Below are positions 18,807 through 32,000 of a stretch of DNA of 32,000 nt, one piece after another (positions within the stretch are counted from its first letter, which is position 1; each line of letters starts with the position of its first letter). The notes under the pieces are model-generated. The model did not search any database. It was not told the origin of the DNA and worked only from the letters and a program-made list of their open reading frames with translations. The DNA lies in assembly GCF_017876815.1 (NCBI RefSeq), contig NZ_JAGIOS010000001.1:2040001-2072000 (forward strand). The letters are read 5' to 3'. This DNA comes from Sinorhizobium meliloti. GTDB taxonomy: Bacteria > Pseudomonadota > Alphaproteobacteria > Rhizobiales > Rhizobiaceae. The position numbers and the translations under genes were made by a program.

Positions 18807-18883
18807 GGCGGAGTAGCTCAGTAGGTTAGAGCAGAGGAATCATAATCCTTGTGTCGGGGGTTCGAATCCCTCCTCCGCTACCA
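18807..18883 (+). tRNA. tRNA-Met (anticodon CAT); tRNA-Ile2 (lysidine) cannot be excluded
   Basis: Hand-folded cloverleaf: acceptor GGCGGAG/CTCCGCT (G1-U72 wobble), D arm GCTC-AGTAGGTTA-GAGC, anticodon loop ATCATAA, T arm GGGGG-TTCGAAT-CCCTC, discriminator A, encoded CCA. Confidence 0.9.
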
Positions 18884-20503: not shown

Positions 20504-20673
20504 GAGCAATTCCAGGAAAAGTGCGCAGCGGTTTTCCGTCCGGAGTTGCGGCAGAAGGGTGAGCAATTCCAGGAAAAGTGCGCAGCGGTTTTCCGTCCGG
20601 AGTTGCGGCAGAAGGGTGAGCAATTCCAGGAAAGTGCGCAGCGGTTTTCCGTCCGGAATTGCGGCAACGAAAG
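20504..20673. repeat. Tandem array: two perfect 57-bp copies plus one diverged copy of a Rhizobiaceae intergenic repeat
   Basis: GAGCAATTCCAGGAAAAGTGCGCAGCGGTTTTCCGTCCGGAGTTGCGGCAGAAGGGT occurs at 20504-20560 and identically at 20561-20617. The third copy (20618-20673) has a 1-nt deletion and a diverged 3' end. Confidence 0.85.
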
Positions 20674-22186: not shown

Positions 22187-22240
22187 AGCGGCGTGCCTTC
22201 ATATTTCCGGCCGAACAAAAGACGGCTGACGGCGCGGCGC

Positions 22241-22819
22241 TCAGGCCGGGCCGATCTCTATCAGGAAAGCTTCCGAAGCGATGTCGGCCGAGAGCGTGAG
22301 CGTGCCCGGCTGGACGAGGACCGCCGCGTCGAGCCCGTGCAGGGTTGCGGAGACGCCTTCGGTCACGAGCGCAACGCTGCCGCGATGACAGAAGAGAACG
22401 AGATCGCGGGCGCTCGTCGTCACCGGTTGCGAGCCCTCGACATGAATCCTGCGCACGCGGTGTTTCAAAGCCTGGCGGCGCGTCATCACATTGAGATCGG
22501 TGACCGGGCCATCCACGAGCGTCGCGGACGTCGGCACGTCGGCGGGGAAGGTGAGGGGGGTATCCGAGGTGGTCAGCAGTTTCGGTTGCCGGCCCTCGAT
22601 CGCAAGCGTCATCCCGCTGCCCTCCAGGATCGATAGGGTGCGGTCGATGCCGGGAAAGATCGAGAAGGCGCCATTGGTGGCGACGGTCGCCATGCTTATG
22701 CGCCAGTCGAAATCGGCAATGGTGGCACGGTCCGGAGAGACGGCGATTTCCACCGTCTCTCCGCCGCCGTTCTTCCACGGCATATGCCTGTACTCGCTCG
22801 AGCGCAGAATTCGCATCAT
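22241..22819 (-). CDS. hutD: HutD-family protein
   Basis: MMRILRSSEYRHMPWKNGGGETVEIAV is the HutD/Ves signature. The start at 22819 lies just after the upstream stop and gives 192 aa. An alternative start at 22834 overlaps the upstream gene. Confidence 0.8.
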   Translation of the reverse strand: MMRILRSSEYRHMPWKNGGGETVEIAVSPDRATIADFDWRISMATVATNGAFSIFPGIDRTLSILEGSGMTLAIEGRQPKLLTTSDTPLTFPADVPTSATLVDGPVTDLNVMTRRQALKHRVRRIHVEGSQPVTTSARDLVLFCHRGSVALVTEGVSATLHGLDAAVLVQPGTLTLSADIASEAFLIEIGPA

Positions 22820-22821
22820 CG

Positions 22822-24147
22822 TCAGCCGAGCCATCCCATCGACGTTCCGACCCAAATGATCGGCGCCGTCACCACTATGCTCAATACGACGCGAATATAC
22901 CAGATCACCAGAAGATCGCGAAAGCTGAGCGGGATCGAGGTCGCCAGCATGCAAGGGACCGAGGCGGACAGGAACAGGACCTGACTGACCGATACCACCG
23001 CGGCCAGGAACTTCACCTCGGGCACGGCTTCCTTGAGCAGGATGGCGGGCAGGAACATCTCGGCGAGCCCTGAGGCGAGCGCCTTTGCCGCCTGCATCGG
23101 TTCGCCGAACTGCGCGAGCCAGGTGAAGGGGTAGAGCGTCAGGCCGAGAATGTCGAAGATCGGCGTGAACTTGGCGGCGAGAAGCCCGATGAGCCCGACG
23201 GCCATGATGCTCGGCAGGATCATCGCCGCCATGCGCAGTCCGTCGAGGAAGCTTTCGCGCAGCAGCGTCGGCAGGCCCTTGGCGATTGCTGCCTGTTCCA
23301 GGCCCGTCTCGACAGCGACGCTCAGGCGGCTGCGGCCCGGGGGCAGCGGCTGGTCCCGATCGCCCTCGTGCGCAAGCCGGGAAAGCGGCCAGATCCGGGC
23401 GGTGATCGCAGAAACGATGAATGTGACGACAAGCGTCGTCCAGAAGTAGAAATTCCAGATATCCATGAGCCCCAGCGTCTTCGCCACGATGATCATGAAC
23501 GTAGCCGACACGGTGGAAAAGCCTGTCGCGATGATCGCCGCTTCGCGCACCGTGTACTTGCCTTCGCGGAACACGCGGTCGGTGATCAGGAGCGCAAGGG
23601 AGTAGCTGCCGACGAAGGAAGCGACGGCGTCGATGGCGGACCAGCCCGGCGTACGCCAGATCGGCCGCATCACGGGCTGGACGAGCACGCCGGTGAATTC
23701 GAGAAGGCCGTAGCCGATCAGGAAGGCGAGTGCCAAAGCGCCGATGGGTACGATCAGCCCGACCGACAGCACCAGCTTGTCGAAGAGGAAGGGCAGCATG
23801 TCGGGGGCGAAGAAGACCTCGGGCCCGATGCCGGCGAGATAAAGGCCGGCAAGGACCAGTCCGAGGACGCGCAGGACCGAAAACACGGCATCGGTCGTCG
23901 TCTTGCGCCAGGTGCCCTTCGCGATGGGGCCGAAGGCGCCGTAAGCCATCAGCAGCAATACGAAGCCGATCGCCACCGGCCGCGCATGGGTCGATATGGC
24001 GGTTGCCGCATGGTCGAGCAGGATCGTCGACTTGCCGTTGATTTCGACCGGCACGAAGAACAGGAATATGCCGATGAGGCTGAAAAGGATGAGCCGCAAT
24101 GCGGCGCCGCCGCGCGAGCCCCCTGCCTCGGTGGTGATGTGCGTCAT
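22822..24147 (-). CDS. YjiH-type (nucleoside-recognition/Gate domain) inner-membrane permease, 441 aa
   Basis: It is polytopic and hydrophobic throughout. The N-terminus LILFSLIGIFLFFVPVEINGKSTILLDHA resembles the YjiH family. The gene is co-operonic with hut genes. Confidence 0.7.
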   Translation of the reverse strand: MTHITTEAGGSRGGAALRLILFSLIGIFLFFVPVEINGKSTILLDHAATAISTHARPVAIGFVLLLMAYGAFGPIAKGTWRKTTTDAVFSVLRVLGLVLAGLYLAGIGPEVFFAPDMLPFLFDKLVLSVGLIVPIGALALAFLIGYGLLEFTGVLVQPVMRPIWRTPGWSAIDAVASFVGSYSLALLITDRVFREGKYTVREAAIIATGFSTVSATFMIIVAKTLGLMDIWNFYFWTTLVVTFIVSAITARIWPLSRLAHEGDRDQPLPPGRSRLSVAVETGLEQAAIAKGLPTLLRESFLDGLRMAAMILPSIMAVGLIGLLAAKFTPIFDILGLTLYPFTWLAQFGEPMQAAKALASGLAEMFLPAILLKEAVPEVKFLAAVVSVSQVLFLSASVPCMLATSIPLSFRDLLVIWYIRVVLSIVVTAPIIWVGTSMGWLG

Positions 24148-24178
24148 GTAGTCTCCTCCCTTCCTTGTTCAGAGCGGG

Positions 24179-25678
24179 TTACAGCTGCCCGTGTGCCGGC
24201 GCGGCTCGCATCAGCCGCCGCATCCGGTCAAAGTCTTCGTTCATCGGACGATCGTCGCGATAGGCGGGGATCGCCGAGCGTATGTGCCCGTAAAGGGCAG
24301 CGGTGCGTTGCGCCTTGCCCTGCGCTTGCGGCTGCAGCTCATAGGCCTGTGCGGCCGCAAGCAGTTCGATCGCCAGTATCCGCTCGAGATTGTCGACGAT
24401 CGAGAGCGCTTTCCAGGCGGCTGGTGTCGCATGGGTGAGCATGTCTTCCTGAAGCGCGGAGGTGATGCCGCCGTCGAGACTTGCGGGTGCCGCGAGCCGC
24501 CGGTTTTCCGCTACGAGCGCGGCAGCCGTGTACTGCGCGATCATGAAACCCGAGGAAACGCCGCTATCTCCGGCGAGGAAGGCAGGGAGACCGCTCACCA
24601 GAGGGTTCACCAGCCGGTCGATGCGGCGCTCGGAAATTGCTGCGACTTCCGCCACTGCGACGGCGAGGCTGTCCATTGCAAGGCCAAGCGCGGCACCGAC
24701 GGCATGGGCCTGCGAATGCACCTCGGGTGCCTCCGGCGAACCGGCAACGGCCGGGTTGTCGGTAACGCTTGCGAGTTCGCGGTCGACGATTTCGGCCACC
24801 TGGCCGAAAGCGTCGCGGGCGGCGCCATGCACCTGCGGTACGGCCCTGAGACTGAGCGGATCCTGGGTGCGGGTGCCGGCCGTACCTGCGAGCATCGGGC
24901 TATCCGCCAGCCAGTCGCGCAGACCCTCGCCGACCGCGCTCAGGCCAGGGGATTGCCGCAGTGCCAAGGGCAACTCGGCAAAGGCATTGGCTTGGCTGCC
25001 GAGGTTTTCGTAAGTCATCGCCGCGGCCGCATCCGCCCAGGCGAAGAGCCTTTCCGTGCGTGCGAGCGCCAGCGCCGCCAGACCGGTGGCGCATGGGGTC
25101 CCGTTGACGAGGCTCAGGCCTTCCTTCGCTTCGAGCCGCAAGGGCGCAAGCCCCAGACGGGCGAGGGCATCGGCGCCGCTCAGTCTTTCCGTCCCCTGCA
25201 TGGCCGAGCCGTGACCGATCAGCACGAGGCCGATCGCGGCGGCATGGGTTAGATATCCGACCGAGCCCCGCGACGGAATGAGAGGGATGATGTCGGCATT
25301 GAGCAGCGCCAGGAGCATTTCGGCCGTCTCGACCCGCACGCCGGAATAGCCGTGGGTGAGGTTGGCTATCTGTGCTGCCATGACGGCCCGGGCTTCCACT
25401 CGACCGAGCGGATCTCCGACGCCGCAAGCGTGGCTCAGGATGATGTTGCGCGAGAGCGCCTGCTGGTTCTCACGGCTGATGATGACATCGCATAGCGCGC
25501 CAACGCCGGTGTTGATGCCATAACCGCGGATGCCGCGCTCCACCAATGCGTCGACGATCCGGCGGGCCTGGGCGATCCGCAGGCGCGCCGGTCCGGACAG
25601 GTCCAGAGAGGCGCCCTCGGCGATCGAAGCGATCTCGCGCCAGGTAAGCGGTCCATCGAGCGAAATCATCTCACCCAT
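24179..25678 (-). CDS. Histidine ammonia-lyase family protein lacking the Ala-Ser-Gly MIO motif
   Basis: The start ATG at 25678 overlaps the hutV stop (ATGGGTGA). HAL-family blocks are present: YGINTGVGAL, LSHACGVG, KEGLSLVNGT, QDPLSLRAVPQVHGA, VTDNPAV, SSGFMIAQYTAAALVAENR, QEDMLTHA. Where HALs read GSVGASGDLAPLAH this protein reads GSVGYLTHAA. Confidence 0.85.
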   Translation of the reverse strand: MGEMISLDGPLTWREIASIAEGASLDLSGPARLRIAQARRIVDALVERGIRGYGINTGVGALCDVIISRENQQALSRNIILSHACGVGDPLGRVEARAVMAAQIANLTHGYSGVRVETAEMLLALLNADIIPLIPSRGSVGYLTHAAAIGLVLIGHGSAMQGTERLSGADALARLGLAPLRLEAKEGLSLVNGTPCATGLAALALARTERLFAWADAAAAMTYENLGSQANAFAELPLALRQSPGLSAVGEGLRDWLADSPMLAGTAGTRTQDPLSLRAVPQVHGAARDAFGQVAEIVDRELASVTDNPAVAGSPEAPEVHSQAHAVGAALGLAMDSLAVAVAEVAAISERRIDRLVNPLVSGLPAFLAGDSGVSSGFMIAQYTAAALVAENRRLAAPASLDGGITSALQEDMLTHATPAAWKALSIVDNLERILAIELLAAAQAYELQPQAQGKAQRTAALYGHIRSAIPAYRDDRPMNEDFDRMRRLMRAAPAHGQL

Positions 25679-26498
25679 GGGTCTGCGGCCTTTCGTGCCG
25701 GCGCTGGACGAACCGGGCAACATAGTCGTTGGCAGGGTTATCGAGAATATCGTTCGGTGTGCCGACCTGAACGACCTGACCATCCCTCAGGATCGCGATC
25801 TCCGACCCGATGCGCAGGGCCTCGTCGAGATCATGGGTGATGAAGACGATGGTCTTTGCAAGATTCCGCTGGAGTTGCAGCAACTGGTCCTGCATGTCGC
25901 CGCGGATCAGTGGGTCAAGGGCACTGAACGCCTCGTCCATCAGGATCACATCCGTGTCGGCAGCGAGCGCTCGTGCAAGGCCGACGCGCTGCTTCATGCC
26001 GCCCGAGAGCTGATGAGGAAATTTCGCGTCGTAGCCGGAGAGGCCCACAGTATCGATCCATTTCATGCCGATTTCGCGGGCATCGTCCTTCGACACGCCG
26101 CGCACGCGCTGGCCGTAGACGACATTCTGGAGCACGGTCCGACGCGGCATCAGGGCAAAGCTCTGGAAGACCATGCTGACGCGCCGCATGCGGAAGGCGC
26201 GCAGCGCCTTCGCACCGAGGTCGAGGATATTGTCGCCGTCGAAGAGGACCTCGCCGCTCGTCGGTTCGATCAGCCGGTTGATGTGGCGCACCAGCGTCGA
26301 CTTGCCCGACCCGGAAAGCCCCATGATCACGAAGATCTTTCCGGCGCCGATCTTCAGGCTGACATCGTTGAGGCCCACGGTGCAGCCGGACCTGGACAGG
26401 ATGTCGGCTTTATCGAGCCCGTCCTCGACCATGGTTAGCGCCTTCTTCGCGTCATGCCCGAAGATCTTGTAGACGTTCCGGATCTCTATATCAGCCAT
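25671..26498 (-). CDS. hutV: ABC transporter ATPase, ProV/OpuAA-like without CBS tail (HutV-like)
   Basis: Walker A is GLSGSGKST, the signature is LSGGMKQR, and Walker B is ILMDEAFSALD. The symbol is assigned by analogy to the S. meliloti hutXWV histidine/betaine importer. Confidence 0.8.
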   Translation of the reverse strand: MADIEIRNVYKIFGHDAKKALTMVEDGLDKADILSRSGCTVGLNDVSLKIGAGKIFVIMGLSGSGKSTLVRHINRLIEPTSGEVLFDGDNILDLGAKALRAFRMRRVSMVFQSFALMPRRTVLQNVVYGQRVRGVSKDDAREIGMKWIDTVGLSGYDAKFPHQLSGGMKQRVGLARALAADTDVILMDEAFSALDPLIRGDMQDQLLQLQRNLAKTIVFITHDLDEALRIGSEIAILRDGQVVQVGTPNDILDNPANDYVARFVQRRHERPQTHG

Positions 26499-27348
26499 TG
26501 CGGGCGTCCTCCGTCCGGGGCTTGCCGAAGCCTTGCGTGATGCGGTCGAGCACGACCGCGAGAATGACGATGCCGATGCCGGCCTCGAGGCCCTTGCCGA
26601 CGTCGAGCGTCTGAATGCCGTTCAGCACCTGTTCGCCGAGGCCGCGTGCGCCGATCATCGAGGCGACGACGACCATCGACAGCGCCATCATGATCGTCTG
26701 GTTGAGGCCGGCCATGATCGTCGGCGTCGCAAGGGGCAGTTCGACGCCGAAGAGAATCTGTCCCGGGCTGCCGCCGAACGCCGTCGCAGCTTCGACGACT
26801 TCCGCATCGACCTGGCGGATGCCGAGATCGGTGAGCCGGATCAGCGGCGGGACGGCGTAGATAATGGTCGCGAGAATTGCCGGGACCTTGCCGAGCCCGA
26901 AGAGCATCAGCGCCGGGATGAGATAGACGAAGCTCGGCATGGTCTGCATGACATCGAGCACCGGCAGAGTGATGTTGCGGACGACGCGGCTCTTCGCGAC
27001 GAGAATCCCCATGGGCACGCCGATCACCACCGAGACGATGGTCGCCATCAGCATCAGGGCGAGCGTCTGCATCGTCAGATCCCAGAGTCCGAGGACGCCG
27101 ACGGTAACCAGCAACGCGCCTACGGCCAGCGTCAGCGACCAGCGCCGCGAACTCCGCCAGGCAAGCGCCATGAAGGCGAGAATGACGAGCCACCAGGGCA
27201 GGCCGCGCAGGATCCATTCGATGAACAGAACGGCCTTCAGGATGACGCCGCTGATCGCCTTGAAGACCCAGCCATAATTGGTGACGAGGGCCTGGATGAA
27301 GTCGTTCACCGGCGCGCGGATCGAGAGATTGAGAGAGTCCGGAAACAT
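26491..27348 (-). CDS. hutW: ABC transporter permease, ProW/OpuAB-like (HutW-like)
   Basis: It is a multi-TM protein with an EAA-like loop (EAATAFGGSPGQILFGVELPLA). Its end overlaps the hutV start by 8 nt. Confidence 0.8.
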   Translation of the reverse strand: MFPDSLNLSIRAPVNDFIQALVTNYGWVFKAISGVILKAVLFIEWILRGLPWWLVILAFMALAWRSSRRWSLTLAVGALLVTVGVLGLWDLTMQTLALMLMATIVSVVIGVPMGILVAKSRVVRNITLPVLDVMQTMPSFVYLIPALMLFGLGKVPAILATIIYAVPPLIRLTDLGIRQVDAEVVEAATAFGGSPGQILFGVELPLATPTIMAGLNQTIMMALSMVVVASMIGARGLGEQVLNGIQTLDVGKGLEAGIGIVILAVVLDRITQGFGKPRTEDARNG

Positions 27349-27429
27349 CGGATATCGTTCCTTGTTCAGGTGGGAGGCGGGAAGCCAAGACCCTCCTGGC
27401 CCGGGGAAGCAGCCTTTCGCCTACGATCG

Positions 27430-27457
27430 CAGCGCCCCGCCTGGTGGCGGGGCGCTG
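27430..27457 (-). other. Intercistronic 12-bp perfect GC-rich stem-loop between the binding-protein and permease genes
   Basis: CAGCGCCCCGCC (27430-41), a 4-nt loop, then GGCGGGGCGCTG (27446-57). No T-run follows. Confidence 0.6.
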
Positions 27458-27484
27458 GCGATTGCCGGCCGGAAAGGGCCACCG

Positions 27485-28525
27485 TTACTTGAGACCGGCT
27501 TCGATCTTGCCGCGCGCCTCGTCCGAGACCCACTTGCTCCAGATGTCGCCTTTGGTTTTCAGGAATTCGGCGGCAGCCGCCGTGGCGTCGACCTTGTTGT
27601 CGGCCATATAGGCGAGGCTGGCGTTGACCTCATCGAGCGGGAATGTTGCCTTTTCCAGGATCTCGACGATTTCCGGAGCTTCGGAAGCGAAGGTGCTGTT
27701 CACGCCATAGGCCACGTCGACGGAGGGAAAGGCGCAGCCTTCGTCGCGTTTGCCGTTGGCGCTGCTCAGTTCTTTCCAGCAGGCTTCGTTATAGGCCGGC
27801 TCTTCGAGCTGGATCAGCTTGAATTTCCCCAGGATCGCGGTCGGCGACCAGTAATAGAAGAGGATCGGCTCGCCCTGGAGATAGGCAGAGGTAATCGCCG
27901 CGTCGAGCGCTGTCCCCGTTCCGGGGCGGAAGTTCACATAGGTCTCACCGAGCTTGTAGGCCTCGAGCTTGGCGGTGCTCACGCCCTCGCAGGTCCAGCC
28001 GGAGGGGCAGTTGAGGAAGCGGCCTTTGGATGGCTCTTCCGGATCGGCGAAAATCTCGGCGATCTTCGGATCGGTAAGCTGTGATACGCTTTTCAGATCC
28101 GGCGCCTTGGCTTCGATATTGCGAGCGGGATCGCCGTGGACGACGTAGTCCGGCACGAACCAGCCTTCGCTGGCGCCTACGAAGGTCTTGCCGACTGCAA
28201 TCACCTTCTTTTCTTCCACCGCCTTGTTCCAGACGTCCGAACGGCCGAGCCATTCCTCGGCGAAAATCTGCACGTCGTTGTTGGCGGTTGCCTGTTCGAG
28301 AGTCACGGAATTGCCGGGGATCGAGTCGACCTGGCAGTCGTATCCCTTGGAAAGGATCGTTTTCATGACCTCGGTGATGAAGGCGCCGCTTTCCCAGTCG
28401 ATGCCGGCGAAGGTCACGGTCTTGCCGTCGCCGCAATAGGAAGCATTGGCGCCGCTGGCGGAAGCCGCCAGCATCAGGCCGGCGGCAGCGAAGGTGAGTC
28501 TCATTGTGCTGATCGACATGCGCAT
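27485..28525 (-). CDS. hutX: Periplasmic substrate-binding protein, glycine-betaine/ProX (OpuAC) family (HutX-like)
   Basis: The signal peptide is MRLTFAAAGLMLAASASGANA. The mature part (TFAGIDWESGAFITEVMKTILSKGYDC ...WLGRSDVWNKA...) resembles ProX-type binders with aromatic-box Trp residues. The start may instead be the third codon (28519). Confidence 0.8.
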   Translation of the reverse strand: MRMSISTMRLTFAAAGLMLAASASGANASYCGDGKTVTFAGIDWESGAFITEVMKTILSKGYDCQVDSIPGNSVTLEQATANNDVQIFAEEWLGRSDVWNKAVEEKKVIAVGKTFVGASEGWFVPDYVVHGDPARNIEAKAPDLKSVSQLTDPKIAEIFADPEEPSKGRFLNCPSGWTCEGVSTAKLEAYKLGETYVNFRPGTGTALDAAITSAYLQGEPILFYYWSPTAILGKFKLIQLEEPAYNEACWKELSSANGKRDEGCAFPSVDVAYGVNSTFASEAPEIVEILEKATFPLDEVNASLAYMADNKVDATAAAAEFLKTKGDIWSKWVSDEARGKIEAGLK

Positions 28526-28556
28526 TCCCCTTTTTTAAATTGCGATTCTTCGATTG

Positions 28557-29942
28557 CTATTTGAGCTTGTTCAGAACGCGCGCGAAGGCGCGGTCGATGT
28601 CTTCCTCCCGGTCATGCCGTCCATTGCGGATCTTCCATTCGCCCGCGATCATGACGTCGCGAACCGTATCCCCGCCGAGTGCGAAGAGCCAGCGGTCGAG
28701 GATCTGGTTGCCGCTTGCCGCGGCGATATAGGGATTGGAGCCGTCGAGAACGACGAGGTCGGCCATGGCGCCGACGCGGATGCCCGGCTCTTCCATTCCG
28801 GCCGCTTGTCCGGCCGCTTGGGCGCCGCCCGCAAGCGCCGCATCGAAGATTGACCTGCCGACGGAGGCGCCGGGCGCGGCGAGCCGGTTGCGCCTGCGGT
28901 CGCGCAGGCGCTGGCCGTATTCGAGGAGCCGAAGCTCTTCCGCGACGCTCGTCGCGACATGGCTGTCGGTCCCGACCCCGAAGCGGCCGCCTGCGGCAAC
29001 AAAGTCGACCGCGGGAAAAATTCCGTCGCCGAGATTGGCCTCGGTCGCGGGGCAAAGGCCGGCGACCGCTCCCGAATGGGCGAGCCGTCTCGTCTCGTCG
29101 GGCGTCATGTGCGTCGCGTGGATCGCGCACCAGCGCTCGTCCACCGGCATGTTGTCGAGGAGCCATTCGACCGGGCGCCGGCCGCTCCAGGCCAGGCAAT
29201 CTTCCACTTCGCGGGGTTGCTCGGCGACATGGATGTGGATGGGGCCGGTGAGGGGCGACGATTGCAGGATCTCGCGCATTTCCTCCGGCGTCGCCGCCCG
29301 CAGCGAATGGATGGCATAGCCAAGCCTCGCGCCTGTCGCATTGCAAGCGGGCGAGAGCCGCTCGAGCAGCGCGAGGAAGCGGTCCGGATCATGAAGGAAG
29401 GGGCGCTGCCCCGCGCTCGGCGCAGCTCCGCCGAAATTGGCATGGGCGTAGAAGACCGGCAGATGGGTGAGGCCGATGCCGGTCGTCTGCGCGGCCCTTA
29501 GTATCCGCAGCGACATTTCCGCCGGGTCCGCGTAAGGCGTGCCGTCGAGCTGATGATGAAGGTAGTGGAATTCGACGACACGCCCGAAGCCGCCCTTCAG
29601 CATTTCCACATAGAGCTTGGCGGCGATCGCCTCGAGATCGTCCGGGTCGACCAGACCGACGGTGCGATACATCTCCTCCCGCCAGGTCCAGAAGCTGTCG
29701 TCGCCTGTTCCGGCCACTTCCGCAAGGCCGGCCATCGCACGCTGGAAGGCGTGGGAATGCAGGTTGGCCATCGCCGGCACAATGGGTCCGGATAGATGCT
29801 CGTCGCCCGGCGCCTTCGATTGCCCTGCTTCCACCGCGAGAATGCGTCCCGCCGCGTCGACGGAGATCGCGACGTTCTCGGACCAACCGGTCGGCAGCAG
29901 CGCCTGTTCGGCAAACAGTCGATGGGCGGACGAAGCTGTCAT
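28557..29942 (-). CDS. hutF: Formimidoylglutamate deiminase HutF (amidohydrolase superfamily)
   Basis: The metal-binding motif is NLHSHAFQRAMAGLAE. Also present are HIHVAEQPREVEDC and GTDSHV. The 461-aa length is typical of HutF. Confidence 0.85.
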   Translation of the reverse strand: MTASSAHRLFAEQALLPTGWSENVAISVDAAGRILAVEAGQSKAPGDEHLSGPIVPAMANLHSHAFQRAMAGLAEVAGTGDDSFWTWREEMYRTVGLVDPDDLEAIAAKLYVEMLKGGFGRVVEFHYLHHQLDGTPYADPAEMSLRILRAAQTTGIGLTHLPVFYAHANFGGAAPSAGQRPFLHDPDRFLALLERLSPACNATGARLGYAIHSLRAATPEEMREILQSSPLTGPIHIHVAEQPREVEDCLAWSGRRPVEWLLDNMPVDERWCAIHATHMTPDETRRLAHSGAVAGLCPATEANLGDGIFPAVDFVAAGGRFGVGTDSHVATSVAEELRLLEYGQRLRDRRRNRLAAPGASVGRSIFDAALAGGAQAAGQAAGMEEPGIRVGAMADLVVLDGSNPYIAAASGNQILDRWLFALGGDTVRDVMIAGEWKIRNGRHDREEDIDRAFARVLNKLK

Positions 29943-29949
29943 GAGAGCC

Positions 29950-29976
29950 GTTCCTGTACGTGGTTGTATATGGAAC
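29950..29976. promoter_or_regulatory. Candidate HutC operator in the divergent hutF-hutC intergenic region
   Basis: GTTCC-TGTACGTGGTTGTATAT-GGAAC has 5-bp outer inverted repeats enclosing two TGTA motifs, in an AT-rich spacer. GntR/HutC operators typically contain GT/TA/AC-type half-sites. Confidence 0.25.
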
Positions 29977-30070
29977 TATAGATATTTTGTTGTGGCGCGC
30001 AAGTTGGAAATAAAGGAAAACAATCGCTGATTTGCCGGGCCGGCGGCGCCCGGCCGCAACGGAGCATCGC

Positions 30071-30814
30071 ATGGCGGTATTGGGGCGCAAGAGCGACAGG
30101 GCGGTTTTCGACGACGGGCCGGTACCGCGCTATGAGGCGGTCAAGCAGTTCATCCGCAGCCGCATCGAAAGCGGCGAATGGCCGCCGCACCATCGCGTAC
30201 CGTCCGAAAACGATATCGTCGCCGATCTCGGCGTCAGCCGGATGACCGCCAATCGCGCACTTCGCGAACTGGCGAGCGAGGGTGCGATCACGCGGGTCCA
30301 GGGAGTAGGGTCCTTCGTGGCTGCCCACAAGGGCAGTACGGCCCTTCTCGAGGTGCGCAATATCGCCGACGAGATTCGCGAGCGCGGACACAGGCATACC
30401 TCGCGGATCACGCTGCTTGAGGAGGAGCAGGCAAGCACCGAGGTCGCGGAGGCGCTCGGGCTTGCGGCGAAAGCGCGGGTCTTTCACTCGATCATCGTCC
30501 ACGCGGAGGACGACGTTCCGATCCAGATCGAGGATCGTTTCGTCAATCCCGCAATCTGCCCCAATTACCTGGAACAGGATTTTACGAGCATGACCCCGAA
30601 CGTCTATCTGACGTTGGTGGCGCCGATCACGCGGACGGAGCAGATCGTCGAAGCCGTTCTGCCGAAGCCGTGGGAATGCAAGCTCCTTTCGATCGGGCGC
30701 GGCGAACCGTGCCTGATGATCCGTCGACGGACCTGGTCGGAAGCTGCAAATGTAACGGTCGCGTGGCTCACCTATCCGGGCACGCGCTATCGTCTGGAAG
30801 GTGTTTCGCAGTAA
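30071..30814 (+). CDS. hutC: Histidine utilization repressor HutC (GntR family, UTRA effector domain)
   Basis: GGAG lies 6 nt before ATG 30071. The wHTH is PRYEAVKQFIRSRIESGEWPPHHRVPSENDIVADLGVSRMTANRALRELASEGAITRVQGVGSFVA, followed by a UTRA-like C-terminal domain. Confidence 0.85.
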   Translation: MAVLGRKSDRAVFDDGPVPRYEAVKQFIRSRIESGEWPPHHRVPSENDIVADLGVSRMTANRALRELASEGAITRVQGVGSFVAAHKGSTALLEVRNIADEIRERGHRHTSRITLLEEEQASTEVAEALGLAAKARVFHSIIVHAEDDVPIQIEDRFVNPAICPNYLEQDFTSMTPNVYLTLVAPITRTEQIVEAVLPKPWECKLLSIGRGEPCLMIRRRTWSEAANVTVAWLTYPGTRYRLEGVSQ

Positions 30815-30844
30815 GAACGACACCATCGCAGAGACGGGAAGGAA

Positions 30845-32000
30845 ATGATGGAAGACGAATTGCTGAAGCGCCGCACGCAGCTTGCGAGGCCGGACGTGTC
30901 GATCGAAGAGGCGCAGGCAATCCTGGCCCAACATTACGGCCTTTCCGGCGATCTCACCGAACTCGGCAGCCAGCAGGACCGCAACTACCGCGTCGACACA
31001 AGCGAGGGGCCTTTTGTCCTGAAGATCGCGAGAGCCGAATATGCGCGGGTTGAGATCGAAGCCCAGAATGCCGCGTTGCGGCATGTCGCTACCAGGCCCG
31101 ATGCTCCCAAAGTGCCCGAAGTGGTGTCCGCCCTGAGCGGCGAGGAAATCGTTACCGCAGCCGTTCGCGAGGAAACCTATCAGTTCCGCTTGCTCACCTA
31201 TCTGGACGGCACGCCTCTGACGCGCCGCAGGCACCTGGCCGTGGAAACCGTGGCGGCACTCGGCGATGTTGCAGGCCGGTTGGCGGTCGCACTCAGGGAT
31301 TTCGATCATCCGGGGCTCGAGCGGGAGTTGCAATGGGACCTCAGAAGGGCAGGGCCGGTGGCGCTTCACCTGCTTTCGGCCATGAGCGACGTCGATCTGC
31401 GCAAGCGCATTGCCGAGGCGATGGTCGGCGCCATGCGCAGGGTTCAGCCGCTGATGCCGGACCTGCGCCTGCAGGCGATCCATCAGGACGTCACCGACGA
31501 CAATGTCGTGAGCCGCGCGGACAGGAGCGGGCGCCTCATCCCGGACGGCGTCATCGATTTCGGCGACGTGCTGAAAGGGTGGGTGGTCGCCGATCTTGCC
31601 GTTACCTGCGCATCGCTGCTGCATCATGCGGGCGGTGATCCCTTCCAGATCCTGCCGGCGGTGAAGGCGTTCCATGCCGTCTGCCCTTTGACGGATGCCG
31701 AATTGAAGGCGCTCTGGCCGCTGATCGTCGCGCGTGCCTGCGTTCTCGTGGCAAGCACGGCGCAGCAGCTCGAGGTCGATCCGGAAAATGCCTATGTCGA
31801 AGGCAATGCCGCGCATGAGCGGGAAATCTTCGACGTTGCGGTTTCCGTCCCTCTCGATCTCATGGAGCATGCGATCGGAGAGGCTGTGGAGCGGTCGCCG
31901 CAGCTTTCTCCGCCCGGGATGGGCCGCCGGCTGCTGCCCGAGCTCGACCCTTCGGAAATCGGCATCGTCGATCTCTCCTCGCTCGGCCCGCACCTTCCTG
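30845..32000 (+). CDS. Aminoglycoside-phosphotransferase (APH/hydroxylysine-kinase-like) domain protein; 3' end outside window
   Basis: My own translation from GGAAGGAA-ATGATG gives MMEDELLKRRTQLARPDVSIEEAQAILAQHYGLSGDLTELGSQQDRNYRV... The catalytic loop is IHQDVTDDNVV. The frame stays open to the window end. It is absent from the ORF track because no stop is reached. Confidence 0.7.
   Translation, partial: MMEDELLKRRTQLARPDVSIEEAQAILAQHYGLSGDLTELGSQQDRNYRVDTSEGPFVLKIARAEYARVEIEAQNAALRHVATRPDAPKVPEVVSALSGEEIVTAAVREETYQFRLLTYLDGTPLTRRRHLAVETVAALGDVAGRLAVALRDFDHPGLERELQWDLRRAGPVALHLLSAMSDVDLRKRIAEAMVGAMRRVQPLMPDLRLQAIHQDVTDDNVVSRADRSGRLIPDGVIDFGDVLKGWVVADLAVTCASLLHHAGGDPFQILPAVKAFHAVCPLTDAELKALWPLIVARACVLVASTAQQLEVDPENAYVEGNAAHEREIFDVAVSVPLDLMEHAIGEAVERSPQLSPPGMGRRLLPELDPSEIGIVDLSSLGPHLP

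What the first reader, a model, noticed from the sequence alone, without database searches (positions are those of the whole stretch)
24179..25678. HAL paralogue with the MIO-forming Ala-Ser-Gly tripeptide cleanly deleted: candidate trimethylammonia-lyase for hercynine or ergothioneine
The 499-aa protein aligns by eye along its whole length with histidine ammonia-lyases. At the invariant GSVG-ASG-DLAPLAH block it reads GSVG-YLTHAA (codons at about 25267-25235, minus strand), three residues shorter. The missing residues are exactly the ASG that cyclises into the MIO electrophile. MIO is required to eliminate ammonia, but not to eliminate a trimethylammonium group. To my knowledge the characterised ergothionases are HAL-family enzymes that work without MIO. 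The gene is translationally coupled (ATGGGTGA) to a ProU/betaine-type ABC importer rather than an amino-acid-type one, which fits a betaine substrate such as hercynine (histidine betaine) or ergothioneine. I do not know of a described pathway of this kind in rhizobia.
Basis: partly seen in the sequence, partly recalled or inferred. Interest (0 to 1): 0.72.

Follow-up and report, generated by a model that had tools for sequence, protein, structure and literature searches.

The report
MIO-less histidase paralogue; probable hercynine lyase
This Sinorhizobium meliloti gene, annotated as histidine ammonia-lyase, belongs to a widespread, conserved family that has lost the enzyme's built-in cofactor. 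It most likely splits trimethylamine off histidine betaine (hercynine) to feed the ordinary histidine-degradation pathway, but nobody has tested this.

Summary
The 499-aa protein at 24179-25678 (-) is S. meliloti SMc00669/"hutH2". It has a full HAL fold, but reads GSVG-YLTHAAA where HALs read GSVG-ASG-DLAPLAH.

It is not a decaying gene. The GS[VL]GYL motif defines a pure clade found in at least 120 species, including the Pseudomonas fluorescens group, where its position matches the published hutH1.

- **Kept:** the catalytic base Tyr53 and the residues that bind the carboxylate and imidazole.
- **Changed:** only the residues around the amine. ASG is deleted, Asp145 becomes Tyr, Tyr280 becomes Leu and Phe329 becomes Ala/Pro.
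- **Parallel with ergothionase:** the Tyr280-to-Leu change also occurs in T. denticola ergothionase, which lost MIO by a different lesion. The loss is therefore convergent.
- **Against ergothioneine:** the ergothionase thiolate-binding Lys384 is absent and the imidazole pocket is HAL-like. This favours hercynine.
- **Context:** the gene usually sits directly after an ABC importer and among hut genes.

Best reading (about 0.55): a cytoplasmic hercynine trimethylammonia-lyase that feeds urocanate into the Hut pathway.

Caveats: no assay exists, HutXWV is published as a histidine transporter, and 30% of assessable loci carry an amino-acid-type importer instead. A hercynine lyase was already described in Shewanella (2025), but in a different lineage.

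The parts
24179..25678 (-). MIO-less HAL-family paralogue (S. meliloti SMc00669 'hutH2'), 499 aa, no signal peptide. Proposed hercynine trimethylammonia-lyase.
   Evidence: PF00221 matches at full length and the HAL equivalog models score below cut-off. AF2 model with pLDDT 84.6; best PDB fold matches are HALs at TM 0.88.
25235..25267 (-). Codons for residues 138-148, GSVG-YLTHAAA. This is the site where HALs carry GSVG-ASG-DLAPLAH: a 3-residue deletion plus Asp145->Tyr.
25671..25678 (-). ATGGGTGA: the start codon of the lyase overlaps the stop codon of hutV (translational coupling).
   Evidence: read directly from the sequence.
25671..26498 (-). hutV, a ProV-type ABC ATPase.
   Evidence: TIGR01186 proV at 345 bits, above its cut-off.
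26491..27348 (-). hutW, a ProW/ChoW-type permease. It overlaps hutV by 8 nt.
27485..28525 (-). hutX, an OpuAC-family periplasmic binding protein. It keeps the three Trp residues that align with the cage of E. coli ProX (W92, W177, W226).
   Evidence: the three Trp are invariant in 34 orthologues.
28557..29942 (-). hutF, formimidoylglutamate deiminase, the first gene of the operon.
   Evidence: TIGR02022 at 740 bits against a cut-off of 413.
30032..30814 (+). hutC, the GntR/UTRA histidine-utilisation repressor, transcribed divergently. In a 99%-identical genome the annotated start lies roughly 40-50 nt downstream of this ORF start.
22822..24147 (-). YjiH-family (Gate domain) membrane protein, 31 nt after the lyase stop. 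The start annotated in a related genome is about 48 nt further in.
   Evidence: None of the 119 other loci held a match.
22241..22819 (-). hutD (PF05962). Its ATG lies 2 nt after the yjiH-family stop and it is the last gene of the operon.

Best explanation
The gene encodes a cytoplasmic, MIO-independent lyase of the HAL fold. It takes N-alpha-trimethyl-L-histidine (hercynine, also called histidine betaine), which the co-translated HutXWV ABC system imports, and eliminates trimethylamine to give trans-urocanate.

**Proposed mechanism (inferred).** Tyr53 abstracts the beta-proton. Gln272, Arg278 and Asn192 hold the carboxylate. His83, Met379 and Glu411 hold an unmodified imidazole ring. The quaternary ammonium leaves without any electrophilic cofactor. 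It sits in a pocket made roomier and more hydrophobic by deletion of Ala-Ser-Gly and by Tyr280->Leu and Phe329->Ala.

**Proposed physiology (inferred).** Urocanate then enters the normal Hut pathway (HutU, HutI, HutF, HutG) and relieves HutC repression. The module would therefore be a feeder branch of histidine utilisation.

**Shown here:** the sequence features, their conservation, the phylogeny and the gene context.

**Inferred:** the substrate, the product and the regulation.
For: 1. **Loss of MIO with a kept catalytic core.** ASG is deleted. Across 112 clade members the counts are Tyr53 112/112, His83 110/112, Gln272 111/112, Arg278 112/112, Met379 111/112, Glu411 112/112 and Asn192 98/112.

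2. **Coordinated remodelling of the amine site only.** HAL Tyr280 is Leu in 104/112 clade members but Tyr in 111/111 MIO-bearing HALs. HAL Phe329 is Pro or Ala in 97/112 clade members but Phe in 110/111 HALs.

3. **Convergence with a proven trimethylammonia-lyase.** T. denticola ergothionase (6s7j) lost MIO by a different lesion. It reads SSIG-E-G-D, one residue shorter than HAL with the Asp kept. It nevertheless shows the same Tyr280->Leu change (QDPLSFR).

4. **Published precedent.** MIO-less HAL homologues cleave ergothioneine, histidine betaine or N-pi-methyl histidine betaine, and Swoo_3913 does not deaminate histidine. Trimethylamine is a good enough leaving group to make MIO unnecessary (bioRxiv 10.1101/2025.08.13.670108; 10.64898/2026.04.22.720169).

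5. **Hercynine rather than ergothioneine.** The Lys384 position of the ergothionase is Tyr383 here, and the HAL-type Met379 is kept.

6. **A conserved clade.** A neighbour-joining tree built without the MIO columns gives a pure clade of 105 sequences. The clade occurs in at least 120 species. Mean column identity among 36 relatives is 74%.

7. **Context.**
- 80 of 100 assessable loci have an ABC ATPase gene directly upstream on the same strand.
- 78 of 119 loci have other hut genes within the 8-kb locus.
- 22 loci have a canonical GSVGASGDLAPL HAL just downstream, which implies the two paralogues do different jobs.

8. **The binding proteins point to an N-alpha-substituted ligand.** HutX keeps the three Trp residues that align with ProX W65, W140 and W188; that these form the quaternary-ammonium cage is from my own knowledge of the ProX structure. 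The alternative PAAT-type binding protein is closest to the opine-binding OccJ/NocT (E = 1e-62), far closer than to HisJ/LAO (about 1e-30).

Against: - No biochemical or genetic test with hercynine exists for any member of this clade.
[quoted passage not shown] The affinity details are my recollection only. Hercynine was, as far as I know, never tested.
- 30 of 100 assessable loci use a polar-amino-acid-type importer, and about 20 have no adjacent importer. In several MAGs the gene lies between tsaD-folB and unrelated genes.
- The clade is only 27% identical to the one structurally characterised trimethylammonia-lyase. Residue-level inference therefore rests on alignment, not on a complex structure.
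- The AF2 monomer model has low confidence in exactly the two active-site loops, residues 53-65 and 401-414.
- New conserved residues (Tyr142, His145, Gln323) have no assigned role. They could point to chemistry other than simple E1cB/E2 loss of trimethylamine.
Confidence: 0.55

Rival explanations
1. It is a lyase for a different N-alpha-substituted histidine or imidazole compound: N-alpha-methyl- or N-alpha,N-alpha-dimethyl-histidine, histopine-type opines, N-acetylhistidine, or imidazole-lactate acting as a dehydratase substrate. The product would still be urocanate.
For: - The imidazole and carboxylate sites and the base are kept while the amine site is rebuilt.
- The PAAT-type partner binding protein resembles the opine binders OccJ/NocT, which accept N-alpha-substituted amino acids.
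- The newly conserved His145, Gln323 and Tyr142 could protonate a poorer leaving group.
- The hut context is equally compatible.
Against: - Secondary or tertiary amines, amides and hydroxide are much poorer leaving groups than trimethylamine. This is why MIO exists (established chemistry, restated).
- Swoo_3913 did not act on carnosine or imidazole-lactate.
- The residues matching the ProX Trp cage are invariant in HutX, which fits a quaternary ammonium.
- The Tyr280->Leu change is shared with a genuine trimethylammonium enzyme.
Confidence: 0.18
2. It is a non-catalytic HAL-derived protein. It could be a histidine- or urocanate-binding regulator, a chaperone of the importer or of HutC signalling, or a structural partner of the canonical HutH tetramer.
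For: - Loss of the cofactor is the classic mark of a pseudo-enzyme.
- P. fluorescens hutH1 has no phenotype on histidine.
- The gene is tightly coupled to transporters that are reported to carry histidine.
- Many loci place it directly beside the canonical HAL.
Against: - The catalytic base Tyr53 and Glu411 are invariant in 112/112 sequences, and the whole substrate-binding set is retained.
- The amine-site changes are the same directional ones seen in an active trimethylammonia-lyase.
- Binding-only proteins usually relax such constraints.
- The clade also occurs without a canonical HAL nearby.
Confidence: 0.12
3. It is an ergothionase: it cleaves ergothioneine to thiourocanate and trimethylamine.
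For: - It is a MIO-less HAL-family protein, like the known ergothionases.
- It has a betaine-type importer.
- It shares the Tyr280->Leu change with 6s7j.
Against: - The essential thiolate-binding Lys384 of T. denticola ergothionase aligns with Tyr383 here, a position that is Tyr in 110/112 clade members and in 76/111 ordinary HALs.
- HAL Met382 is kept where the ergothionase has Gly.
- The neighbours include HutU/HutI/HutG in many loci, and none of the neighbour families I annotated was a recognisable thiourocanate-pathway gene.
- Identity to 6s7j is only 27%.
Confidence: 0.07
4. It is a genuine histidine ammonia-lyase that works without MIO, or with an alternative electrophile.
For: - It is annotated as histidine ammonia-lyase in all sources.
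- It sits in a hut operon next to a published histidine transporter.
Against: - MIO is described as essential for all characterised aromatic amino-acid ammonia-lyases.
- Tyr280 and Phe329 are also gone. My own knowledge, not checked here, is that Phe329 is needed for MIO formation.
- The HAL equivalog HMM scores fall below cut-off.
- By position the P. fluorescens counterpart is hutH1, which is dispensable for growth on histidine.
- MIO-less Swoo_3913 does not deaminate histidine.
Confidence: 0.03

Closest known systems
Canonical histidine ammonia-lyase HutH (P. putida HAL, PDB 1b8f; TIGR01225)
   Same: - Same fold: TM 0.88 and 36% identity.
- Same length class.
- Same Tyr53, His83, Asn195, Gln277, Arg283, Met382 and Glu414 equivalents.
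- Same hut-operon neighbourhood.
   Different: - Ala-Ser-Gly is deleted, so no MIO can form.
- Asp145->Tyr, Tyr280->Leu and Phe329->Ala.
- Scores below the curated HAL cut-offs.
- Forms a separate pure clade.
Ergothionase of Treponema denticola (PDB 6s7j) and its lineage, including the periplasmic S. oneidensis SO_3057
   Same: - HAL fold without MIO.
- Catalytic Tyr, plus carboxylate- and imidazole-binding residues.
- The HAL Tyr280 position is Leu in both.
- Expected chemistry is elimination of trimethylamine.
   Different: - Only 27% identity.
- MIO was lost by a different lesion: E-G with Asp kept and one residue shorter, against a 3-residue deletion with Asp->Tyr.
- Lys384 is absent here (Tyr383).
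- Asn195 and Met382 are HAL-like here but Ser and Gly in the ergothionase.
- The context here is urocanate-pathway genes.
Histidine betaine trimethylammonia-lyase Swoo_3913 of Shewanella woodyi (bioRxiv 10.1101/2025.08.13.670108)
   Same: The proposed reaction is identical: hercynine gives urocanate plus trimethylamine. It too is a MIO-less HAL homologue without the thiolate-binding Lys.
   Different: - Swoo_3913 is periplasmic, Mg2+-dependent and paired with a urocanate reductase for anaerobic respiration. It is 26% identical to P. putida HAL and structurally closest to 6s7j.
- The present protein is cytoplasmic, follows an ABC importer, feeds aerobic Hut catabolism and is much closer to HutH.
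- I could not obtain the Swoo_3913 sequence for a direct alignment.
P. fluorescens SBW25 HutH1 and the hutTu-hutXWV-hutH1 insertion; S. meliloti HutXWV-HutH2 (Boncompagni et al. 2000)
   Same: - In the P. fluorescens group, hutU-NCS1-hutXWV-[MIO-less]-[canonical HAL]-hutI-hutG matches the published order (PMC8871633).
- The window itself is the S. meliloti hutXWV-hutH2 locus.
   Different: - These genes are described only as a second, dispensable or 'putative' histidase and a histidine/betaine transporter.
- No paper in the searchable library notes the missing MIO or proposes hercynine.
- I did not read the SBW25 hutH1 sequence itself. The match is by gene position in related strains.

Membership tests
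Histidine ammonia-lyase (HutH, EC 4.3.1.3) | Aromatic-lyase fold (PF00221) over the full length | tested here: met
   Pfam E = 4e-149 over residues 11-467. Foldseek TM 0.88 to 1b8f and 7tqr.
Histidine ammonia-lyase (HutH, EC 4.3.1.3) | Ala-Ser-Gly (or Ser/Thr/Cys-Ser-Gly) triad that cyclises to MIO | tested here: not met
   A 3-residue gap lies exactly at ASG in the HMMER and MAFFT alignments. The triad is absent throughout the clade.
Histidine ammonia-lyase (HutH, EC 4.3.1.3) | MIO-site residues Tyr280 and Phe329 | tested here: not met
   Leu275 and Ala326 here. MIO-bearing HALs have Tyr in 111/111 and Phe in 110/111.
Histidine ammonia-lyase (HutH, EC 4.3.1.3) | Score above the curated NCBIfam cut-offs | tested here: not met
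   NF006871 scores 478.7 against 524. TIGR01225 scores 467.7 against 539.15.
Histidine ammonia-lyase (HutH, EC 4.3.1.3) | Deaminates L-histidine and is needed for growth on histidine | not testable with these tools
   Indirect evidence only. [quoted passage not shown]
MIO-independent trimethylammonia-lyases of the HAL fold (ergothionase / histidine-betaine lyase) | HAL fold lacking the MIO triad | tested here: met
MIO-independent trimethylammonia-lyases of the HAL fold (ergothionase / histidine-betaine lyase) | Retained catalytic Tyr base plus carboxylate (Gln/Arg) and imidazole (His/Glu) ligands | tested here: met
   Tyr53, Gln272, Arg278, His83 and Glu411 are invariant or nearly so in 112 clade members.
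MIO-independent trimethylammonia-lyases of the HAL fold (ergothionase / histidine-betaine lyase) | Common descent with the characterised enzymes (6s7j lineage) | tested here: not met
   27% identity to 6s7j against 36% to HAL. The MIO lesion is different. The clade is separate and next to the HALs. This is functional analogy, not lineage membership.
MIO-independent trimethylammonia-lyases of the HAL fold (ergothionase / histidine-betaine lyase) | Releases trimethylamine from an N-alpha-trimethyl-histidine derivative | not testable with these tools
   Needs an enzyme assay.
Ergothionase specifically | Lys (T. denticola Lys384) that binds the ergothioneine thiolate and is essential for activity | tested here: not met
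   It aligns with Tyr383 (AQYTA against IQKTF). The requirement is stated.
Hut (histidine utilisation) regulon module | Physical linkage with hutC, hutF, hutD, hutU, hutI and hutG | tested here: met
   The window operon is hutF-hutXWV-lyase-yjiH-hutD, divergent from hutC. 78 of 119 related loci carry other hut genes.
Hut (histidine utilisation) regulon module | HutC operator and urocanate-dependent induction | tested here: inconclusive
   Only a 2-mismatch match to a TGTATATACA-type palindrome, at 29965-29974, no better than chance. Published transcriptomics group SMc00669-00674 with amino-acid uptake genes that are upregulated when nitrogen is scarce.

The most novel reading that the evidence does not exclude
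The 'second histidase' of soil and rhizosphere Proteobacteria is a lineage that evolved from HutH independently of the ergothionases. It includes S. meliloti HutH2, the gene at the P. fluorescens hutH1 position, and homologues in Paraburkholderia, Pantoea, Erwinia, Halomonas and Paenibacillus. Its members would be cofactor-free hercynine lyases.

Together with its dedicated importer (HutXWV or an OccJ/NocT-like PAAT system), it would form a widespread, unrecognised feeder branch. This branch would channel fungal and actinobacterial histidine betaine into the Hut pathway and release trimethylamine in soil.

This reading would also explain two old puzzles. One is why HutXWV behaves as a 'histidine transporter that also takes betaines'. 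The other is why hutH1 has no phenotype on histidine.
Probability: 0.5. Interest if true: 0.72.

Novelty: new variant of a known kind. Interest (0 to 1): 0.62.

Why it matters
- **Annotation.** Many genes across well-studied model bacteria are annotated 'histidine ammonia-lyase' although they cannot form the cofactor that reaction needs.
- **A missing pathway step.** If they are hercynine lyases, they would define an aerobic, cytoplasmic route for degrading histidine betaine. Fungi, cyanobacteria and ergothioneine-producing bacteria accumulate this compound. The route would link it to a new soil and rhizosphere source of trimethylamine.
- **Old puzzles.** The reading offers a rationale for the odd histidine-plus-betaine specificity reported for HutXWV and for the silent hutH1 of Pseudomonas.
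- **Enzyme evolution.** It would be a clean case of convergence. Two HAL lineages discarded MIO by different lesions but made the same Tyr->Leu change.
- **Testability.** The claim can be tested directly with commercial hercynine, a UV assay and existing mutants.

Tried and rejected
1. **Decaying pseudogene.** Rejected. The motif and the catalytic residues are conserved across more than 200 sequences.

2. **Membership of the ergothionase lineage.** Rejected on identity, tree position and type of lesion. Two divergent MIO-less representatives (P0279, P0305) were tested as possible bridges to 6s7j. Both are closer to HALs.

3. **Betaine-type importer as a universal signature.** Rejected. 30 of 100 assessable loci carry a PAAT-type importer.

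4. **Literature.** None assigns a function to this clade. Boncompagni 2000 (PMC94542) is not held. The one PA5093 paper I read calls it hutG, which is no help.

5. **HutC operator search.** No better than chance.

6. **Promoter and terminator scan of the operon.** Nothing above background.

7. **Neighbour clustering by all-against-all BLAST.** Shadow ORFs in GC-rich DNA contaminated it. I replaced it with tblastn against reference proteins.

8. **Loci without hut or ABC neighbours.** These MAG gammaproteobacteria place the gene after tsaD-folB, which is uninformative.

9. **Swoo_3913, SO_3057 and SO_3299 sequences.** I could not obtain them, so comparison with the proven hercynine lyase is indirect.

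10. **The AF2 monomer model.** It is too uncertain in the two active-site loops to analyse the pocket.
Full report
**Where the window comes from.** An 8.7-kb stretch of the window (22200-30900) is 99% identical to Sinorhizobium meliloti. The matching record is labelled 'pSymB', but it is 3.72 Mb and carries ctrA and mnmA, so it is probably the chromosome.

All genes below lie on the minus strand except hutC:
- hutC, 30032-30814 (+), transcribed divergently
- hutF, 28557-29942
- hutX, 27485-28525
- hutW, 26491-27348
- hutV, 25671-26498
- the HAL-like gene, 24179-25678
- a YjiH-family membrane protein, 22822-24147
- hutD, 22241-22819

These assignments rest. The intergenic distances are 31, 136, -8, -8, 31 and 2 nt, which indicates a single operon. 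Published transcriptomics refers to SMc00669-SMc00674 as an operon for histidine and proline uptake, citing Boncompagni et al. [quoted passage not shown] I identify that locus with this window from its gene content and my own recollection of the locus tags and the hutH2 name.

**Check of the observation.** The 499-aa product is a full-length PF00221 protein (E = 4e-149). Residues 138-148 read GSVGYLTHAAA. Alignment to P. putida HAL shows a clean 3-residue gap at Ala142-Ser143-Gly144, and Asp145 is replaced by Tyr. The ATGGGTGA overlap with the hutV stop codon is present. NCBI's HAL models score below their curated cut-offs: 478.7 against 524, and 467.7 against 539.15.

**Is it a decaying gene? 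No.**
- 118 of the 120 nearest 90%-identity clusters (70-99% identical, Rhizobiaceae and relatives) read GSVGYL.
- 120 of 120 Burkholderia and Paraburkholderia relatives read GSVGYL[ST]H.
119 of the 120 hits were real HAL-like genes, 45-81% identical to the query. The hits came from Pseudomonas, Paraburkholderia, Rhizobiaceae, Pantoea, Erwinia, Serratia, Halomonas, Paracoccus, Polaromonas, Paenibacillus, Brevibacillus and others.
- Among representatives clustered at 50% identity, the MIO-less 'GS[VL]GYL' proteins are the closest relatives. Ordinary ASG/SSG HALs follow at about 40-46% identity.
- A neighbour-joining tree built with the MIO-region columns removed places 105 GYL sequences in one clade with no MIO-bearing member inside. 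This fits a single ancient loss within the HutH radiation.

**Active-site anatomy (residue roles).**
- Kept in 112 clade members: Tyr53, the beta-proton base (112/112); His83 (110); Asn192, equivalent to HAL Asn195 (98); Gln272, equivalent to Gln277 (111); Arg278, equivalent to Arg283 (112); Met379, equivalent to Met382 (111); and Glu411, equivalent to Glu414 (112).
- Changed together: ASG is deleted. Asp145 becomes Tyr142 (106/112). HAL Tyr280 becomes Leu (104/112, against Tyr in 111/111 MIO HALs). HAL Phe329 becomes Pro or Ala (97/112, against Phe in 110/111). The Pro of LAPLAH becomes His145 (95/112).
- In short, everything that recognises an imidazole-propionate skeleton and removes the beta-proton is retained. 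Everything that surrounds MIO and the amine is rebuilt.

**Structure.** The AF2 model (pLDDT 84.6, pTM 0.89) is a HAL fold. The best PDB matches are HALs (7tqr, 1b8f; TM 0.88; 34-36% identity). T. denticola ergothionase 6s7j ranks 20th at 27% identity.

**Comparison with proven MIO-less enzymes.** Two preprints establish that HAL homologues without ASG are trimethylammonia-lyases:
- ergothionases (T. denticola; S. oneidensis SO_3057)
- a histidine-betaine lyase (S. woodyi Swoo_3913, which does not deaminate histidine)
- an N-pi-methyl-histidine-betaine lyase (SO_3299)

A Lys (T. denticola Lys384) is essential for ergothioneine and is replaced by Asn or Gln in the sulfur-free enzymes.

I recovered the 6s7j sequence through a side route. 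It aligned to an ergothionase-like periplasmic protein on pSymA of S. meliloti RMO17. The alignment shows three things:
1. 6s7j reads SSIG-E-G-DITTLSH. It is one residue shorter than HAL and keeps the Asp. The query is three residues shorter and has Asp->Tyr. The two lineages therefore lost MIO independently.
2. Both nevertheless carry Leu at the HAL Tyr280 position (QDPLSFR against QDPLSLR). This is convergent.
3. Lys384 of the ergothionase aligns with HAL Val386 and with Tyr383 of the query. That residue is also common in true HALs (76/111). HAL Met382 is kept here, whereas the ergothionase has Gly.

The imidazole pocket is thus HAL-like. This favours an unmodified imidazole ring (hercynine) over the 2-thione ring of ergothioneine.

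**Genomic context across 119 related loci.**
- 100 loci have enough upstream sequence to assess. In 80 of them an ABC ATPase gene lies directly upstream on the same strand. 50 of these are ProV/HutV-type (with HutW and HutX) and 30 are HisP-type with HisQ/M-like permeases (Paraburkholderia examples).
- 78 of 119 loci contain other hut genes within the 8-kb locus.
- 22 loci carry a canonical GSVGASGDLAPL HAL immediately downstream.
- In the P. fluorescens group the order is hutU, an NCS1 permease, hutX, hutW, hutV, the MIO-less gene, the canonical HAL, hutI, hutG. [quoted passage not shown]
- Some Rhizobium loci place the gene inside the core operon, as hutF, MIO-less gene, hutI, canonical HAL, hutG, hutU.

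A cytoplasmic enzyme co-translated with an importer and embedded among urocanate-consuming enzymes points to urocanate as the product of an imported histidine derivative.

**What the binding proteins say.**
- HutX is OpuAC-family. It keeps Trp92, Trp177 and Trp226, which align with Trp65, Trp140 and Trp188 of E. coli ProX. From my own knowledge these three form the ProX quaternary-ammonium cage. All three are invariant in 34 orthologues.
- The alternative PAAT-type binding protein is far closer to the Agrobacterium opine binders OccJ and NocT (E about 1e-62). From my own knowledge these accept N-alpha-substituted basic amino acids. It is much more distant from LAO/HisJ (about 1e-30).
- Both partner types therefore fit an N-alpha-substituted histidine. 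This remains an inference. HutXWV is published as a histidine transporter that also takes betaines and proline (title seen). That is what one might expect if its cognate ligand were histidine betaine, but hercynine has not been tested as far as I could find.

**Verdict.** The most likely function is a cytoplasmic, cofactor-free hercynine trimethylammonia-lyase that feeds urocanate to the Hut pathway (confidence about 0.55). The rivals are:
- a lyase for another N-alpha-substituted histidine or imidazole compound (0.18)
- a non-catalytic, regulatory HAL-derived protein (0.12)
- an ergothionase (0.07)
- a MIO-free true histidase (0.03)

**Novelty.** The reaction type is already known from Shewanella (2025 preprint). 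This clade, however, is a separate and much larger lineage with different cellular logic: import followed by aerobic catabolism, rather than periplasmic anaerobic respiration. It also shows a convergent route to MIO loss. I found no paper in the searchable library that notes the missing MIO in hutH2 or hutH1, or that proposes hercynine. I rate it a new variant of a known kind. The interest is moderately high because the prediction is sharp, widely applicable and easy to test.

Noticed in passing
L125 5893-7533 (S. meliloti RMO17 pSymA, NZ_CP009145.1): A third HAL-family paralogue occurs in some S. meliloti strains. It is 546 aa with an apparent N-terminal signal peptide and is MIO-less (GSVG-Q-ADMTLLSH). 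Its best PDB match is T. denticola ergothionase (E = 1e-88). The Lys384 position is Ala, so it resembles the periplasmic Shewanella-type trimethylammonia-lyases rather than an ergothionase. LysR-type regulators flank it.
   Followed up: partly
L077 1649-2506 and equivalent PAAT binding-protein genes in Paraburkholderia, Pantoea and Erwinia loci: The binding protein of the HisJQMP-like importer that precedes the MIO-less lyase is much closer to the opine-binding OccJ/NocT (E about 1e-62) than to HisJ/LAO (about 1e-30). This suggests a ligand with a substituted alpha-amino group.
   Followed up: partly
window 22822-24147 (-): A YjiH-family (Gate/nucleoside-recognition domain) membrane protein sits between the lyase and hutD. 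tblastn found no counterpart in any of the 119 related loci. In Ensifer loci hutD follows the lyase directly. It looks like a lineage-specific insertion of unknown role, possibly a transporter.
   Followed up: partly
window 27431-27456: A perfect GC-rich hairpin (AGCGCCCCGCC-ACCA-GGCGGGGCGCT on the coding strand) lies in the 136-nt hutX-hutW spacer. It could stabilise the upstream mRNA or attenuate transcription, raising binding-protein output relative to the membrane components.
   Followed up: no
window 20504-20666: A 57-bp tandem repeat of 2.9 copies, 98% matching, lies in a region with no convincing gene. It resembles a dispersed intergenic repeat element.
   Followed up: no
window 18807-18883 (+): A tRNA-Met (CAT) gene, the only Rfam or ARAGORN hit in the window. 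It lies just downstream of mnmA.
   Followed up: no
protein P0013 (metaclust source): This 513-aa sequence is 93% identical to the query. It reads GSVGYSGDLAPLTH and has many 1-3-residue insertions and a divergent C-terminus. It looks like an error-laden or chimeric database entry, not a natural intermediate.
   Followed up: no
L007, L025, L042, L074, L087, L092, L107 (MAG gammaproteobacteria): In this subgroup the MIO-less gene (about 61-63% identical to the query) has no hut or transporter neighbours. It follows tsaD and folB and precedes an SDR and a Methyltransf_28 gene. Its role in this context is unclear.
   Followed up: partly
L001 (CP090106.1): The record is titled 'plasmid pSymB', but it is 3.72 Mb and carries ctrA, mnmA and the hutXWV locus. 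It is probably a mislabelled chromosome.
   Followed up: no
L002 5651-7000: A retron-type reverse transcriptase gene (NF038233, NF042941) lies about 2 kb from the lyase in B. cenocepacia. It is unrelated to the finding.
   Followed up: no
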